A stretch of 64,000 bases of DNA from Actinomycetota bacterium (GTDB lineage: Bacteria > Actinomycetota > Thermoleophilia > Solirubrobacterales > Solirubrobacteraceae), in assembly GCA_018268595.1 (NCBI GenBank), contig JAFDWH010000004.1:237531-301530 (forward strand). The letters are read 5' to 3'. Shown here in pieces: positions 57,083 through 60,847 of this stretch. How positions within the stretch are numbered: position 1 is the stretch's first letter; each line of letters begins with the position of its first letter. The notes beneath the pieces were generated by a model. That model was not told the origin of the DNA and made no database searches. It saw nothing but the letters and a program-made list of their open reading frames with translations. Both the position numbers and the translations under genes were made by a program.

Positions 57083-60000
57083 CTAGAGACCAGGCGAGGC
57101 ATGCCACCGCTGCACCTGAGCGACCTCATCGATCGATTCGAGGGGAACCGCTAGCGCTGCGCGCAGCTCTGCGATATCGACCAGCTCAACCGGATACTTC
57201 GTGGGAGCCCTCAACACCGCCTCAGCCGCCGAGAGCGGCATCTCGGCGACCCGACGGGTATCGCGATAGAAGTACATAAGCTGCGTGTCGTGGAAGACCC
57301 CAGCAGTGAACGCGCGACGCGCCAACTTTAGAGGGTCGTCCCAGCTTTCGGACGGGTTCATGACGAGTCGGTCGAACTCAACCCGAAGCCGAAAACGGAG
57401 GATCGCCGGACTTCTTCCCGCATAGTCCGCGACGTACCGTCGGCACAGTTCGTACTGAGCATCCATGTTCGACCGCGCAGCGAGCAACGCAGCCGTGCGC
57501 GCGGAGACCGCGACAGACATGTCAGGCAAAGGCACGCGGCGCCTGAGGTCGCGGGGATTACCCGTACCGACAGCACGCGTCACACCGCGGTGGACCTGCT
57601 CATATTCCTCGACCTTCAAGCCTCGAAGCGCCTGATCGAGCGACAGCAGAACACTTAGGAGGGTCGTGGGCCCAGCCCAGGCGAACGCCAGCATTACGAC
57701 GAACTGTCGCTCGGCCAGCGATCTCGCGCCCTCAAGCTGAGCTTCCCACCACCTCGCCGCGCCCGCTCTTTGGCGTGCCCTACGAGCTCGCACGCAAAGT
57801 GGTTCCACGATTTCGGAGATGGGTGCTGTCAAATTGGCCTGGGACCCGAACTGAGCTGCCCGGACGGCCATGGCAAGCCACACAGCTCGCTCGCCAAAAT
57901 GCTGCCGCCCGAGCTCTACAGTCACGTCCCACGGCTCATTGGAATGGAGCCATCGCCGCGGATCACGAAACCGCTGATGCTCCAGAACCTCGATCACCTC
58001 GCGTGCTGCTTGCACAGTCGGCGCTTCGTCTCGTCTAGCCCCGATGACCTTTGCTTGCTCGCGACCCGGGTCAAACCAGGCCCACTCGGCGACGCGGGTC
58101 ACAGCGGCCAATGCCTGGAGCGGTGAAAGCAACCGTCTCTCACCGCTACCCAAGTGCTCATCACCACCACCCAAGATTGCATCTGCGATCGACGCCGCAC
58201 GTACCTCGTCGTGCTCACAGAAGTCGGTGTGGCCAGCGCGGAAAATTGCCGTCAGACGCTCACGGCTTCTGGGCTCGTCACAAAGCGCTTGCTGCAACTC
58301 ATCCGGCGAAGCACGATGCAAGACACCGAGCCACAAGCCCACCTGGACCCACTTCGTTCGCGCCGACCCATTGGTCTCTGCGATCTGGGCCCACCAGCGC
58401 TCCCAATTGGCGTCCGCGTGCCCATTCGCACTCGCGGAAGCTGCAAGCTGCTGGGTCACCTCCTGTGGTGCATCGAGCTTCACAGCATAGATGAGTGCTT
58501 GCCATGACCTCTCTGCAAGCCGTTCTCTACCAGAACCTTCTGGCAACATCAGCGCCCGCTGCCGCCTCGCTCGCACAGGAGGCCGTCCGACGACCAGGCG
58601 AAGCCCAAGGTCGTCGGTCACGAGGTCAATAACAGCATCTATCGATCGAGGAGACTGTGCGAACACCCAGTCTCCTAGCAGGGTCATGGCGAGACGCCTT
58701 GGCGCCGCCGTGAACTTGCGTTGGCGCTCGCCGATCAATTCCTGCAGTGCCTCAACCAGAGAACCGAGTTCCCCCTTGCTACAACAGCCTGCAAAGAATC
58801 GGGCTACGTTCAGCCAATACGGATTTCGTATGAGCGCTGCGAATCGGTCGGGACGAGTCCCACTGCGCTCTGCTCCAACTGGCGAGTATGGAGCAGTCTC
58901 ATATAGATGGCGTGCCGCGAAGTACTCGCGAAGCGGCTGAACCTCGAACTCGTAGGTGCCCTCGACGCGCGACACCATGGCAACCACTCGCGCCACCACC
59001 CCGTCAAACAGGACTCTAGCCATGGACGGGTCATGGCCTTCGGCTACCAGGAAGTCGCGGACTACCTCCTGCAAGCGTCTACCCGTGATGCGCCCGGTAG
59101 CGTGTCTCGACTCAGCTTCCAGATGAAGCATCCAAGCGAGGTAGCGATGAATCTCTACGAGGAGATCACGGTTTGCCCGTACACTCTCGTCCTTCTCTGC
59201 CTCACGACTGAAGAACGTGTCTACATAGGCGTCATAGAGTGCCGTCCGTTTGTCCGGGAGCGAGGCTCCACGAGTGTGGATAAGGCTGAGCAGGATCGCG
59301 AGCTGCATAGGATTCCTCGCGAGATCCCGCATGTGAGGCTGGTCAAGCCGCGTTCTCAGAATGCGCCGAATTTCGCCAGCGGCGTGCGGAGGGATACGCC
59401 GAGCCCGAATCCATCGCTCTGCGTAATCAGTAATCAGCTCCTGCGTGACAGAGACGAGATCGCAGTGAAGGAATGTTCGCGTCGAGAAGCCCGGAGACTT
59501 GGAGAATGCGGCCGGACGACTAGTCACGACCACCTGCATGGAAAGCGCGTTCTCGCGGAGCCGCGATACAGCGGCGGAGACTTCTTCCACTACTCGACGT
59601 CGCAGCCCAATATCAGGGACCTCGTCGAGCCCGTCAAAGACCAACAATACGGTGCTCAACCGAAGCACCGCCACGAGATCACTGACATCGAAGCTCAGTC
59701 CACCCGAGTGATATCTCACTTGGTAGGCAAGGTACGACTCGACAGTCTTCTGCCAGTCGTCCGGAACTTCTTCGTCCGGCGCGAGGGGGTTGGAACGCGT
59801 CAACCATGCGGCGTAGTCCCGCAGGTCAATCCGAAAAGGGAGGCGGGAGGGTCCTTCGCGATGACGCTCCTGCAAATCCTTCTTTGACTCGCCCAAGAGG
59901 CGCATGCGATGCACCTGGCAGAGATATTGCACCAGCGTTGACTTCCCCTGGCCGGGGGCACCTTCGATGACAACTGTGTCGAGCGTGCGCTGCCCGTCCT

Positions 60001-60847
60001 CGTCGAGCAGGAGCGACGCGGCACCTTCTTGCAACTCTCCTTCTCGAAGCGCGCTGTATAGATGCCCCTCAACTGCCTCACCCGCCGTAGCGAAGGACCG
60101 CCACTGAGAGCGCCCCCTGCCATAGCGAGACCCCAGGAGCTTCCAACGGGCGAACTCGCTAGCGTCGCCTCGCTTACGCAGCGGCAAGCGGACCATCAGG
60201 GGGACGTCGATGAACACATCGAGAAGGGGGGTCTCCAGCTCAACCTGTCGGAAGTGAACAAGACGATCTGCGTCATATTGCTGGCGAAGCCAAGCGCGGA
60301 TGGCAGAGACCCGGCGCTCAGCGGCTTCGGAGAGTCCTTCTTGGACAACCCAGCGAAGGACGTCTGCGCCAGTCAAGAGTTGAGGAAATGCCCAGTGAAG
60401 GTCCGGGGCAAGATCGAGTCGACGCGTGATGTCATCCCGCCACCTGCACTCGGCTGGGATGCTGACTGCGCCATCAAGAATTGCTGCGGCTCGGTCAATA
60501 CTTCCAATGTCGAGGTTGCCGGTACCGGGCACGTTCGTGATCACGATGTACCGATCTACCTTGTCGCGCTCCAGCAAAGCAGCGACCTTTGGTACCTCTT
60601 CGGCAAGCTCCGTAAGCAGCCACTTGTGTGGGTCTTTGACGCTAAGCGGCTTCCGGTGAAACTTGATCTGTACGACTACCTGCTCGTTGTTCGAGCCGTA
60701 CGCGCTCAGCGCGACTCCATCCCGTCCACCGTCTGCGGCTCCCAGCGGAAAGGGCTGGAGAGTCGGAAACTCCGGCAGCAGGAGGGCTTGGCAAAGTCGC
60801 TGGAAGTCCTCCGGTCCGAGTTGTTCGAGCGGATAGTCAGCCGCCAT
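57083..60847 (-). CDS. NACHT/STAND NTPase with an N-terminal Mrr-like PD-(D/E)xK nuclease module (bacterial NLR/Avs-like)
   Basis: 1254 aa. The N-terminus 'FQRLCQALLLPEF...GAADGGRDGVAL...VVVQIKF' follows the Mrr_cat-type D...(Q/E)xK pattern. Walker A 'GAPGQGKST' (59936-59962), Walker B 'LLVFDGLDEV', 'VVVTSRP' and 'ARNPMQLAILLSL' are NACHT hallmarks. The C-terminal ~600 aa are helical with no recognisable TPR/LRR/WD40. Confidence 0.85.
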   Translation of the reverse strand: MAADYPLEQLGPEDFQRLCQALLLPEFPTLQPFPLGAADGGRDGVALSAYGSNNEQVVVQIKFHRKPLSVKDPHKWLLTELAEEVPKVAALLERDKVDRYIVITNVPGTGNLDIGSIDRAAAILDGAVSIPAECRWRDDITRRLDLAPDLHWAFPQLLTGADVLRWVVQEGLSEAAERRVSAIRAWLRQQYDADRLVHFRQVELETPLLDVFIDVPLMVRLPLRKRGDASEFARWKLLGSRYGRGRSQWRSFATAGEAVEGHLYSALREGELQEGAASLLLDEDGQRTLDTVVIEGAPGQGKSTLVQYLCQVHRMRLLGESKKDLQERHREGPSRLPFRIDLRDYAAWLTRSNPLAPDEEVPDDWQKTVESYLAYQVRYHSGGLSFDVSDLVAVLRLSTVLLVFDGLDEVPDIGLRRRVVEEVSAAVSRLRENALSMQVVVTSRPAAFSKSPGFSTRTFLHCDLVSVTQELITDYAERWIRARRIPPHAAGEIRRILRTRLDQPHMRDLARNPMQLAILLSLIHTRGASLPDKRTALYDAYVDTFFSREAEKDESVRANRDLLVEIHRYLAWMLHLEAESRHATGRITGRRLQEVVRDFLVAEGHDPSMARVLFDGVVARVVAMVSRVEGTYEFEVQPLREYFAARHLYETAPYSPVGAERSGTRPDRFAALIRNPYWLNVARFFAGCCSKGELGSLVEALQELIGERQRKFTAAPRRLAMTLLGDWVFAQSPRSIDAVIDLVTDDLGLRLVVGRPPVRARRQRALMLPEGSGRERLAERSWQALIYAVKLDAPQEVTQQLAASASANGHADANWERWWAQIAETNGSARTKWVQVGLWLGVLHRASPDELQQALCDEPRSRERLTAIFRAGHTDFCEHDEVRAASIADAILGGGDEHLGSGERRLLSPLQALAAVTRVAEWAWFDPGREQAKVIGARRDEAPTVQAAREVIEVLEHQRFRDPRRWLHSNEPWDVTVELGRQHFGERAVWLAMAVRAAQFGSQANLTAPISEIVEPLCVRARRARQRAGAARWWEAQLEGARSLAERQFVVMLAFAWAGPTTLLSVLLSLDQALRGLKVEEYEQVHRGVTRAVGTGNPRDLRRRVPLPDMSVAVSARTAALLAARSNMDAQYELCRRYVADYAGRSPAILRFRLRVEFDRLVMNPSESWDDPLKLARRAFTAGVFHDTQLMYFYRDTRRVAEMPLSAAEAVLRAPTKYPVELVDIAELRAALAVPLESIDEVAQVQRWHASPGL

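What the first reader, a model, noticed from the sequence alone, without database searches (positions are those of the whole stretch)
57083..60847. Single-gene bacterial NLR: Mrr-like nuclease + NACHT + an unassignable ~600-aa sensor in a low-GC patch next to tRNA-Phe
Seen in sequence:
- A 1254-aa ORF has a visibly lower G+C than its surroundings.
- Its N-terminus carries a PD-(D/E)xK-like 'DGGRDG...VQIK' module.
- Textbook NACHT motifs follow: GAPGQGKST, LLVFDGLDEV, TSRP, NPMQLAILL.
- A long helical C-terminus contains no TPR, LRR or WD40 repeats that I can recognise.

Established knowledge: bacterial NACHT (bNACHT) and Avs/STAND proteins with nuclease effectors are antiphage sensors that oligomerise when the C-terminal domain binds a phage protein.

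Inference: this is a stand-alone abortive-infection/defence NLR whose sensor domain, and therefore its trigger, may be new.
Basis: partly seen in the sequence, partly recalled or inferred. Interest (0 to 1): 0.85.

Follow-up and report, generated by a model that had tools for sequence, protein, structure and literature searches.

The report
Single-gene bacterial NLR with uncharacterised sensor
This horizontally acquired gene encodes a bacterial NLR-type immune protein (nuclease, NACHT switch and a helical sensor that matches nothing known); the protein type is already catalogued, but what it detects is unknown.

Summary
An intact 1254-aa ORF (57083-60847, minus strand) lies in the lowest-GC stretch of the window (GC 0.61, GC3 0.66, against GC3 0.95 in the adjacent core gene), about 800 bp from tRNA-Phe and between decayed mobile-element genes. 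It has three parts. The N-terminal nuclease domain is Mrr-like, with invariant D39/D43/Q60/K62. The NACHT module passes Pfam's cut-off, and its model matches NLRC4, NOD2 and NLRP3. The C-terminal ~520-545 aa form a confident all-alpha solenoid with no Pfam, PADLOC, PDB or viral-structure match. The whole architecture is conserved in more than 1300 proteins and 246 species-representative genomes from at least ten phyla. The sensor evolves much faster than the rest (27% against 51-63% pairwise identity) and was found only in this architecture. The closest tested relative is E. coli bNACHT70 (Kibby et al., NACHT clade 7). It shares the nuclease and NACHT regions but not the sensor, and no phage defence is recorded for it. 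I read the gene as a stand-alone, nuclease-armed NLR-like defence or abortive-infection protein. It is a new member of a catalogued kind; only the sensor and its trigger are open. Function is inferred, not shown.

The parts
57083..60847 (-). Complete NLR-like gene, 1254 codons plus stop. All family-invariant residues are present.
   Evidence: ORF list and translation. Full-length homologues at 40-49% identity. Invariant columns.
60338..60847 (-). aa 1-170: N-terminal restriction-endonuclease-fold (Mrr-like PD-(D/E)xK) effector domain. The putative catalytic residues are E8, D39, D43, Q60 and K62, plus invariant E84. The DGGRD motif lies at 60719-60733 and QIK at 60662-60670.
   Evidence: Pfam Mrr_cat 20.9 bits, E 4e-4, against a cut-off of 21. 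PADLOC PDC-S73, Aga_REase and LmuA hit the N-terminus. hhalign to the bNACHT70-type REase: 97.2%, E 3.7e-11. Register match to the E. coli Mrr catalytic domain. Invariant residues.
59993..60337 (-). aa 171-285: linker and pre-NACHT region. It contains a variable, low-confidence insert at about aa 215-275.
   Evidence: Entropy profile. pLDDT 54-70 over 220-270.
58718..59992 (-). aa 286-710: NACHT module (nucleotide-binding domain, helical domain, winged helix, second helical domain). Walker A GAPGQGKST lies at 59936-59962, Walker B LVFDGLDE at 59621-59644, and TSRP marks sensor 1.
   Evidence: Pfam NACHT 30.8 bits, above the 26.7 cut-off, and 37 of 37 members. Foldseek: NLRC4, NOD2, NLRP3 and Avs3. 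hhalign to bNACHT25 covers aa 398-707. BLASTP to bNACHT70-type covers aa 1-704.
57086..58717 (-). aa 711-1254: C-terminal all-alpha solenoid, the presumed sensor. It diverges fast (27% mean pairwise identity over aa 733-1254) and has no known homologue outside this family.
   Evidence: AF2 model pLDDT 88.7, pTM 0.89, about 37 helices. No PDB or BFVD match at E<=1e-3. No Pfam hit. PDB profile search empty. Entropy. Confined to this architecture.
56930..57085 (-). Highly structured RNA segment immediately 3' of the stop codon, a candidate terminator without a U tract. It is context, not part of the protein.
   Evidence: Fold -89.6 kcal/mol, z -4.6, 0 of 200 shuffles as stable.
56208..56280 (+). 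tRNA-Phe(GAA), the likely integration site of the island that carries the gene (context).
   Evidence: ARAGORN. No second copy of its 3' end in the window.
56540..56830 (+). Frameshifted XRE-family helix-turn-helix gene (context: a decayed island gene).
   Evidence: Three-frame translation. The stitched peptide hits HTH_3 at 43.4 bits.
61040..61304 (-). Frameshifted C-terminal remnant of a tyrosine recombinase or integrase (context: a decayed island gene).
   Evidence: Stitched peptide: Phage_integrase 26.3 bits, E 7.5e-6, profile positions 125-169 of 172.
61600..63318 (+). Two toxin-antitoxin-like pairs (context). The first is DUF4258/BrnT-like plus a 75-aa ORF. The second is ParD_like plus Zeta_toxin.
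   Evidence: Pfam. Intermediate GC3 of 0.82-0.87.

Best explanation
The gene encodes a stand-alone bacterial NLR-related (bNACHT/STAND) immune protein carried on a decayed integrative island. Proposed mechanism, by analogy with bNACHT25/32 and the Avs proteins: in the resting state the C-terminal alpha-solenoid holds the NACHT module closed. When the sensor binds a phage-derived protein, or a host factor perturbed by infection, the NACHT module exchanges or binds NTP and oligomerises. This brings the N-terminal Mrr-like nuclease domains together and activates them. They then cut DNA indiscriminately, which stops phage replication and probably kills or arrests the cell (abortive infection). Shown here: the three-domain anatomy, conservation of the catalytic and NTP-binding residues, a rapidly diverging sensor, effector swapping in close relatives, patchy distribution across phyla, foreign base composition, and carriage on mobile elements. 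Inferred: ligand-triggered oligomerisation, nuclease activity, the defence phenotype, and the identity of the trigger.
For: NACHT membership is supported by Pfam and by fold. The nuclease-type N-terminus has invariant D39, D43, Q60, K62 and E84. It is homologous to bNACHT70's annotated REase domain and carries the Mrr motif register. Relatives on actinobacterial plasmids have HNH_2 in place of the REase domain in front of the same NACHT module (Kibby Table S1), as expected for an interchangeable effector position. The sensor averages 27% pairwise identity against 51-63% for the other domains, the pattern Kibby et al. describe for an arms race. The family is single-gene: no neighbour recurs in 10 neighbourhoods examined. 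It lies next to restriction-modification, GmrSD, HEPN and toxin-antitoxin genes in L006 and L007, next to integrases, recombinases or a Tn7-like element in L008, L092, L093 and L094, and the bNACHT70-type gene lies in a P2-like prophage. It occurs in 246 species-representative genomes across at least 10 phyla with patchy spread. GC3 of 0.66 against 0.95 marks a recent acquisition. Experimental precedent: the REase-NACHT proteins bNACHT25 and bNACHT32 defend against phages, degrade DNA on infection, and need the nuclease residue D48 (PMC12169576). Walker A is required in bNACHT01.
Against: No experiment exists for this family. The closest tested relative, bNACHT70, has an empty 'Phage Defense' entry in Kibby Table S2. 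No PADLOC Avs or NLR model recognises the protein. Pfam Mrr_cat is just under its cut-off and reaches E<=0.01 in only 3 of 51 N-terminal domains, and the AF2 model is uncertain around residues 30-56, where the catalytic hairpin should be. Only 2 of 9 informative homologue neighbourhoods contain clear defence systems, and two (L005, L098) contain neither defence nor mobile-element genes. The neighbouring island genes are pseudogenes, so the element is decaying.
Confidence: 0.7

Rival explanations
1. The machine is the same, but sensing is indirect (a guard). The solenoid does not bind a phage protein directly; it monitors a host factor, as bNACHT25 does through the chaperone DnaJ.
For: bNACHT25/32 need host DnaJ and do not bind the MS2 coat protein directly (PMC12169576). 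SeAvs7 incorporates host EF-Tu (preprint abstract). The family keeps one recognisable sensor scaffold across at least 10 phyla whose phages differ greatly, which is easier to reconcile with a conserved host ligand or a very conserved phage fold.
Against: The sensor diverges fast (27% identity), whereas a host-chaperone interface would be expected to be conserved. Most characterised Avs families bind phage proteins directly.
Confidence: 0.15
2. A conflict or programmed-cell-death system that is not aimed at phages. The trigger would be plasmids, integrative elements, kin discrimination or stress in multicellular bacteria.
For: Many carriers are filamentous or multicellular: Nostocales, Streptomyces, Chloroflexota, Polyangiaceae. 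This matches the enrichment of NTP-dependent conflict systems in multicellular prokaryotes that is the subject of PMC7159879 (title and abstract only, seen). bNACHT70 showed no antiphage phenotype. A CARD-NLR-like system controls gene transfer agents rather than classical phages (PMC13236601, listed).
Against: The family is also common in unicellular Acidobacteriota, Bacteroidota and Pseudomonadota. The bNACHT70-type gene sits inside a P2-like prophage, and the L006 and L007 homologues sit among restriction and HEPN genes.
Confidence: 0.1
3. A silent relic. The gene is intact but no longer expressed or functional in this genome, a passenger of a dying island.
For: The flanking XRE regulator and the integrase are frameshifted. 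No att repeat remains in the window. No sigma-70-like promoter lies upstream, although that scan is not suited to high-GC organisms.
Against: The reading frame stays open for 1254 codons in a 61% GC gene, and every family-invariant residue is retained. GC3 has not drifted toward the host value, which indicates recent arrival rather than long decay.
Confidence: 0.05

Closest known systems
bNACHT70 (E. coli LMR3158, WP_115915321; near-identical WP_096949132.1), NACHT clade 7 of Kibby et al. 2022/2023
   Same: A single-gene system. The proteins are collinear over aa 1-704 against 1-695 (24% identity, E 5e-33). They have the same REase domain subtype (ADGGRDG ... [Q/S]-x-K-F-H ... KDP-x-KWL; hhalign 97.2%) and the same NACHT signature (G-PGQGKST, FDGLDEVP). 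Both have a long all-helical C-terminus with no annotated domain. Both are carried on a mobile element; the E. coli gene lies in a P2-like prophage.
   Different: The sensors show no detectable similarity (hhalign of the family profile against aa 700-1330: probability 0.3%). Identity is only 24% even in the shared part. The host phylum differs. No defence is recorded for bNACHT70 in the published screen.
bNACHT25 / bNACHT32 (E. coli, NACHT clade 6): REase + NACHT + NCH1, experimentally validated
   Same: The three-part logic is the same: a PD-(D/E)xK nuclease effector, a NACHT module, and a helical C-terminal sensor in one polypeptide. The NACHT and winged-helix regions are homologous (20% identity, E 1e-5; hhalign 94.8%). 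This is the best mechanistic model: DNA degradation on infection, dependence on D48, and a hyperactive histidine mutant.
   Different: There is no NCH1 domain: PF22728 scores 132 bits in bNACHT25 and nothing here or in 37 relatives. The nuclease domains are not detectably similar. The sizes are 752 against 1254 aa. They belong to different NACHT clades.
HNH_2+NACHT proteins of actinobacterial plasmids (e.g. Arthrobacter pAL1 WP_011928024.1; Mycobacterium sp. ELW1), NACHT clade 7
   Same: 31% identity over our aa ~177-920 (E about 1e-60). That covers the linker, the NACHT module and the first part of the C-terminal region. Kibby Table S1 lists HNH_2+NACHT proteins from the same organisms in clade 7.
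   Different: The effector is an HNH nuclease rather than an REase. The proteins are shorter (891 aa) and lack the distal sensor.
Avs (antiviral STAND) families Avs1-24
   Same: The principle is the same: effector, STAND NTPase and a large, mostly alpha-helical repeat sensor that recognises conserved phage proteins. Avs3 is a weak structural match in the NTPase region (E 2.9e-5).
   Different: No PADLOC Avs model hits. The sensor matches no solved Avs structure. None of the seed sequences in the held part of the 2026 survey's tables carries this family's motifs. Its nearest seed is the bNACHT70-type protein.

Membership tests
NACHT NTPase (STAND superfamily, Pfam PF05729) | Profile match above the curated cut-off | tested here: met
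   30.8 bits against a cut-off of 26.7. 37 of 37 family members match NACHT and NPHP3_N.
NACHT NTPase (STAND superfamily, Pfam PF05729) | Walker A GxxxxGK[ST], Walker B hhhhDGhDE with a second acidic residue, and a sensor-1 arginine (TSRP) | tested here: met
   G296-T304, D405/D408/E409 and T442/R444/P445 are invariant in 37-79 sequences.
NACHT NTPase (STAND superfamily, Pfam PF05729) | Fold made of the nucleotide-binding, helical, winged-helix and second helical domains, as in animal NLRs | tested here: met
   AF2 model pLDDT 84.6. Foldseek: NLRC4 2.7e-9, NOD2 4.7e-9, NLRP3, all at probability 1.0.
NACHT NTPase (STAND superfamily, Pfam PF05729) | NTP-dependent, ligand-induced oligomerisation | not testable with these tools
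   Needs biochemistry or cryo-EM.
bNACHT clade 7 (Kibby et al.; type example bNACHT70) | NACHT module closest to clade 7 members | tested here: inconclusive
   The best matches among classified proteins are clade 7: bNACHT70-type (E 5e-33) and HNH_2+NACHT proteins from Mycobacterium sp. ELW1 and Arthrobacter plasmids. The clade 6 protein bNACHT25 gives only E 1e-5. No phylogenetic tree was built.
bNACHT clade 7 (Kibby et al.; type example bNACHT70) | N-terminal REase domain of the bNACHT70 type | tested here: met
   hhalign 97.2%, E 3.7e-11 over 119 columns.
bNACHT clade 7 (Kibby et al.; type example bNACHT70) | C-terminal region homologous to that of bNACHT70 | tested here: not met
   hhalign of the sensor profile A6 against bNACHT70-type aa 700-1330: probability 0.3%. 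BLASTP finds nothing beyond aa 705.
bNACHT clade 7 (Kibby et al.; type example bNACHT70) | Antiphage activity | not testable with these tools
   None is recorded for bNACHT70 itself (Table S2).
bNACHT clade 6 (bNACHT25/32: REase + NACHT + NCH1) | NCH1 domain (PF22728) after the NACHT module | tested here: not met
   132 bits in bNACHT25, and no hit at E<=1 in our aa 700-1254. None in 37 relatives. The hhalign alignment ends before NCH1.
bNACHT clade 6 (bNACHT25/32: REase + NACHT + NCH1) | bNACHT25-type nuclease domain | tested here: not met
   hhalign probability 0.16%.
Mrr-like PD-(D/E)xK nuclease (Pfam Mrr_cat PF04471) | Profile match above the curated cut-off | tested here: inconclusive
   20.9 bits against a cut-off of 21, E 4e-4, aa 8-71. 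Only 3 of 51 N-terminal domains reach E<=0.01. hhalign against E. coli Mrr gives E 0.2 but in the correct register.
Mrr-like PD-(D/E)xK nuclease (Pfam Mrr_cat PF04471) | Catalytic signature: an acidic residue in helix 1, D in strand 2, and (E/Q)xK in strand 3 | tested here: met
   E8 is nearly invariant. D39, D43, Q60 and K62 are invariant. They align to DGGID and QAK of Mrr.
Mrr-like PD-(D/E)xK nuclease (Pfam Mrr_cat PF04471) | alpha-beta-beta-beta-alpha-beta core fold | tested here: inconclusive
   The model shows helix 7-23, strand 57-62, helix 73-94 and strand 99-104, but residues 30-56 have low confidence (pLDDT 51-64) and no strands are assigned there. The domain could not be searched separately by fold.
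Mrr-like PD-(D/E)xK nuclease (Pfam Mrr_cat PF04471) | Metal-dependent DNA cleavage | not testable with these tools
   Needs an enzyme assay.
Avs1-5 and other defence systems modelled in PADLOC-DB v2 | Match to a system-specific model over the NTPase or sensor | tested here: not met
   Only the N-terminal nuclease region hits, and only PDC-S73, Aga_REase and LmuA.

The most novel reading that the evidence does not exclude
The ~520-aa alpha-solenoid is a pattern-recognition module of its own. It is confined to this family and conserved as a scaffold across at least ten phyla. It would detect a ligand that none of the characterised bNACHT or Avs sensors detects, for example a conserved protein of phages that infect actinobacteria, cyanobacteria or acidobacteria, or a host factor. 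Identifying that ligand would add a new specificity to the bacterial NLR repertoire, and it could explain why bNACHT70-type proteins scored negative against coliphages.
Probability: 0.35. Interest if true: 0.6.

Novelty: new member of a known kind. Interest (0 to 1): 0.42.

Why it matters
Bacterial NLR-related proteins are thought to be the ancestors of animal and fungal NACHT immune receptors, and what each sensor detects is the main open question for them. This family is large, phylogenetically broad and easy to recognise (more than 1300 proteins; 246 species-representative genomes), yet neither its trigger nor its phenotype is known. Its only tested relative gave no defence in E. coli. A confident structural model of the sensor now exists, together with clear catalytic and Walker A control residues and natural effector-swap variants. 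That makes it a workable case for trigger discovery outside enterobacteria. It does not change the current picture of how such systems work.

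Tried and rejected
- **bNACHT25-type (clade 6) membership: rejected.** There is no NCH1 domain, the nuclease domains are unrelated, and NACHT identity is only 20%.
- **PDC-S73 as the bNACHT25 family model: rejected.** I suspected this because both are 752 long, but bNACHT25 does not hit PDC-S73.
- **Shorter sensor-only or sensor-plus-other architectures: rejected.** The ~650-aa and ~750-aa hits are collinear fragments that start at internal Met617 and Met514.
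- **An att repeat of the tRNA-Phe 3' end to delimit the island: not found in the window**.
- **Sequence searches of PDB (protein, nuclease profile, sensor profile):** no meaningful hit.
- **Fold searches of the sensor against PDB and viral structures:** only generic HEAT, ARM or ankyrin solenoids, with TM-scores of 0.25 or lower.
- **Phage genome records:** no copy of the family.
- **Retrieving full-length bNACHT25 by protein search from a 95-aa fragment:** this returned only fragments. I solved it through DNA search of complete E. coli genomes.
- **Finding this family among the seeds of the 2026 STAND survey, or by species name in Kibby Table S1:** no exact member identified. Table S1 clade 7 does list REase+NACHT proteins with the same layout.
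- **Quantitative defence-island enrichment:** not possible with the tools. I give only a count over 9 informative neighbourhoods.
- **Source organism:** not identified.

Full report
**1. The observation**

The window contains an uninterrupted 1254-codon ORF on the minus strand at 57083-60847. It lies in the only markedly low-GC stretch of the 64 kb. GC is 0.58-0.63 between 57 and 61 kb and 0.69-0.79 everywhere else. At third codon positions the contrast is sharper: 0.66 for this gene, 0.95 for the adjacent AMP-binding (acyl-CoA synthetase-type) gene, and 0.82-0.87 for the toxin-antitoxin genes on the other side. The gene is therefore a fairly recent import from a donor with lower GC. tRNA-Phe(GAA) lies at 56208-56280.

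**2. The surroundings**

The order of features is as follows:
- AMP-binding gene, 54488-56131.
- tRNA-Phe.
- An XRE-type helix-turn-helix gene with one frameshift. The stitched peptide hits HTH_3 at 43 bits.
- The NLR gene, convergent with the XRE gene. A very stable hairpin lies just after its stop codon (z -4.6).
- A frameshifted C-terminal stump of a tyrosine recombinase at about 61040-61304. The stitched peptide hits Phage_integrase at E 7.5e-6.
- A DUF4258/BrnT-like pair.
- A ParD-like/Zeta-toxin pair.

This looks like the decayed remains of an integrative element at tRNA-Phe. No second copy of the tRNA 3' end is present in the window, so the far boundary is unknown.

**3. Anatomy of the protein**

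*(a) Residues 1-170.* Taken alone, this segment scores 20.9 bits against Pfam Mrr_cat (cut-off 21, E 4e-4). PADLOC models that begin with a restriction-endonuclease domain also hit it: PDC-S73 in 12 of 37 family members (best E 3e-8), Aga_REase in 5 of 37 and LmuA in 2 of 37. Only 3 of 51 family N-termini reach Mrr_cat at E<=0.01, so the HMM evidence is marginal. Two further results carry more weight:
- The family profile aligns to the catalytic domain of E. coli Mrr in the right register: E-N-L in helix 1, DGGRD against DGGID, QVK against QAK. The score itself is weak.
- D39, G41, R42, D43, Q60, K62 and E84 are invariant in every alignment made.

*(b) Residues 286-710.* This is a NACHT module. 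It passes Pfam's cut-off (30.8 against 26.7 bits; 37 of 37 members). Its AF2 model (pLDDT 84.6) matches NLRC4, NOD2 and NLRP3 at E down to 2.7e-9, and more weakly Avs3. Walker A, Walker B and the TSRP motif are invariant.

*(c) Residues from about 710-733 to 1254.* AF2 gives a confident model (pLDDT 88.7, pTM 0.89) of about 37 helices forming a solenoid. It matches nothing:
- No PDB structure at E<=1e-3. All TM-scores are 0.25 or lower, and the weak hits are generic HEAT or ARM proteins.
- No viral predicted structure.
- No Pfam family at E<=1, and none in 37 relatives.
- No PDB sequence with a 51-sequence profile.

Residues 640-707 are in fact the best-conserved part of the protein and align with bNACHT25 and bNACHT70, so they belong to the NACHT module.

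**4. The family**

The whole architecture is conserved. A database search gave 1321 proteins. Nearly all of the 120 listed are 1230-1330 aa long and align full-length at 40-49% identity. A scan of one genome per species found relatives in 246 genomes. They span Acidobacteriota, Pseudomonadota, Cyanobacteriota, Chloroflexota, Planctomycetota, Bacteroidota, Actinomycetota, Bacillota, Spirochaetota, Gemmatimonadota, Myxococcota and others, and none of the 80 listed full-length matches exceeds about 45% identity to this protein.

Mean pairwise identity by region is shown below.

| Region | Mean pairwise identity |
|---|---|
| Nuclease domain | 51% |
| Nucleotide-binding domain | 53% |
| Helical and winged-helix part | 59% |
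| Residues 641-732 | 63% |
| Distal sensor (733-1254) | 27% |

An exhaustive search of 1.84 billion representative proteins with the sensor alone found 482 clusters. Every hit among the best 150 is either a full-length protein of this architecture or a collinear fragment of one. The recurrent ~650-aa and ~750-aa 'proteins' start at conserved internal methionines, which is a gene-calling artefact on cut contigs. The sensor was therefore seen in no other architecture.

**5. Neighbourhoods of homologues**

| Locus | What lies within 10 kb |
|---|---|
| L006 | Type III restriction-modification system and a PIN toxin |
| L007 | MmeI-type methyltransferase, GmrSD, HEPN, AAA_15/21, DUF1156, DUF499 |
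| L008 | Integrases, IS91 transposase, group II intron reverse transcriptases |
| L092 | Adjacent integrase |
| L093 | Large serine recombinase, two genes away (~3 kb) |
| L094 | Tn7-like TnsABCD element about 4 kb away |
| L097 | Adjacent DUF433/DUF5615 pair |
| L005 | Nothing relevant |
| L098 | Nothing relevant |

A tenth locus, L009, is a short 9.6-kb contig that holds only two-component and other regulator genes and is not informative. No neighbouring gene recurs from locus to locus, so this is a single-gene system. Carriage on mobile elements is frequent. Co-location with known defence genes is seen in 2 of the 9 informative loci. I could not compute a formal enrichment. No copy was found in 50,697 phage records. 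Partial relatives occur on actinobacterial plasmids.

**6. Comparison with known systems**

Kibby et al. (bioRxiv 10.1101/2022.07.19.500537) showed that bacterial NACHT proteins defend against phages. They describe REase effectors and helical-repeat sensors as general categories.

*bNACHT25 and bNACHT32 (clade 6).* These have an REase, a NACHT module and NCH1. They degrade DNA on infection and need D48 (PMC12169576). I fetched bNACHT25 (WP_001702659.1, L004). It shares only the NACHT module with our protein (20% identity, E 1e-5; hhalign 94.8% over our 398-707). The NCH1 domain is not shared, and the nuclease domains are not detectably similar.

*bNACHT70 (clade 7).* This is a closer relative, found through the supplementary tables. 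It is E. coli WP_115915321, 1330 aa, annotated 'REase 5..110 + NACHT 271..695', in NACHT clade 7, in an operon of one gene, with the 'Phage Defense' column empty. The protein I fetched, WP_096949132.1, is seed #346 of the 2026 STAND survey; it matches bNACHT70 exactly over the first 164 nt of the gene and shares its N-terminal and NTPase sequence motifs. It lies in a decayed P2-like prophage.
- It is collinear with our protein over residues 1-704 (24% identity, E 5e-33).
- Its nuclease domain is homologous to ours (hhalign 97.2%, E 3.7e-11).
- Its C-terminal 630 residues show no similarity to the sensor profile (probability 0.3%).

*Other clade 7 members.* Table S1 also lists HNH_2+NACHT proteins of Mycobacterium sp. 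ELW1 and Arthrobacter, a Trypsin+NACHT protein, and several REase+NACHT proteins with the same coordinates as ours, such as Tolypothrix (REase 5-77, NACHT 281-699). Apart from one NACHT+CARF entry, no C-terminal domain is annotated for any of them. The HNH_2 proteins come from the same organisms as my plasmid hits, which match our residues ~177-920 at 31% identity. This is a natural effector swap on a shared NACHT chassis.

*The 2026 STAND survey.* The preprint (10.64898/2026.01.04.697583) reports 589 STAND clades and 684 sensor structural clusters, and names triggers for Avs7-21. None of the seed sequences in the held part of its tables carries our family's motifs. I could not check its expanded set.

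**7. Most likely mechanism**

By analogy with bNACHT25/32 and the Avs proteins, the C-terminal solenoid keeps the protein inactive until it binds a phage-derived protein or a perturbed host protein. The NACHT module then binds NTP and oligomerises. The clustered Mrr-like domains become active and cut DNA, which aborts the infection.

Shown here: the domain anatomy, conserved catalytic and NTP-binding residues, a fast-evolving sensor, a modular effector position, single-gene organisation, and a mobile, patchy distribution.

Inferred: activation by oligomerisation, nuclease activity, the defence phenotype, and the trigger. My confidence is about 0.7.

The rivals are:
- Indirect sensing through a host factor, which is the same machine with a different input (0.15).
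- A conflict or cell-death role not aimed at phages (0.10).
- A silent relic on a dying island (0.05).

**8. Novelty and verdict**

The architecture is not new: it is a catalogued clade of bacterial NACHT proteins of which one member has been tested, without result. I therefore rate it a new member of a known kind.

The genuinely open parts are the sensor and the trigger. The sensor has no name, no structural relative and no occurrence outside this family. The trigger is unknown for the whole clade. That makes the family a reasonable target for trigger discovery in non-enterobacterial hosts, but it is not a surprise to specialists. Interest: 0.42.

Noticed in passing
window 56540-56830 (+): An XRE-family helix-turn-helix gene between tRNA-Phe and the NLR gene carries a single frameshift near 56690. 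Stitching the two frames restores a full HTH_3 domain (43 bits).
   Followed up: partly
window 61040-61304 (-): A frameshifted C-terminal stump of a tyrosine recombinase. Only the last ~45 profile positions of Phage_integrase remain. It is probably the dead integrase of the island.
   Followed up: partly
window 61600-63318 (+): Two toxin-antitoxin-like pairs lie just beyond the NLR gene: DUF4258/BrnT-like plus a 75-aa ORF, and ParD_like plus Zeta_toxin. Their GC3 (0.82-0.87) is intermediate between the NLR gene and the core gene, which suggests an older acquisition or a different origin.
   Followed up: partly
window 56930-57085 (-): A very stable RNA structure lies right after the NLR stop codon (-89.6 kcal/mol, z -4.6). 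It has no U tract. It may be a terminator shared with the convergent XRE gene.
   Followed up: partly
L006 14009-14236 and L097 14499-14828: A small DUF433 gene sits immediately downstream of the NLR homologue in two unrelated genomes, once with DUF5615. This could be chance, or the two may travel together.
   Followed up: no
L004 4501-6759 and L096 9001-12993: bNACHT25 lies in a lambdoid prophage just after the replication genes. The bNACHT70-type gene lies in a decayed P2-like prophage between the portal and replication-endonuclease genes. Both are prophage cargo positions.
   Followed up: partly
proteins P0127-P0268: The 50%-identity protein library holds many ~650-aa and ~750-aa entries that are this family's genes cut by contig ends and restarted at conserved internal methionines (our M617 and M514). 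This gene-calling artefact could be mistaken for shorter architectures.
   Followed up: yes
window 50703-54005 (-): A 1100-aa ORF with no Pfam hit, overlapped by long plus-strand ORFs (50754-53207 and 52238-54268). In this GC-rich DNA it is probably not the real gene. The true coding strand was not worked out.
   Followed up: no
L090 5665-8340 (Arthrobacter plasmid pAL1): An 891-aa HNH_2+NACHT relative sits on a linear plasmid, followed within about 1 kb by umuD and a Y-family DNA polymerase gene.
   Followed up: no
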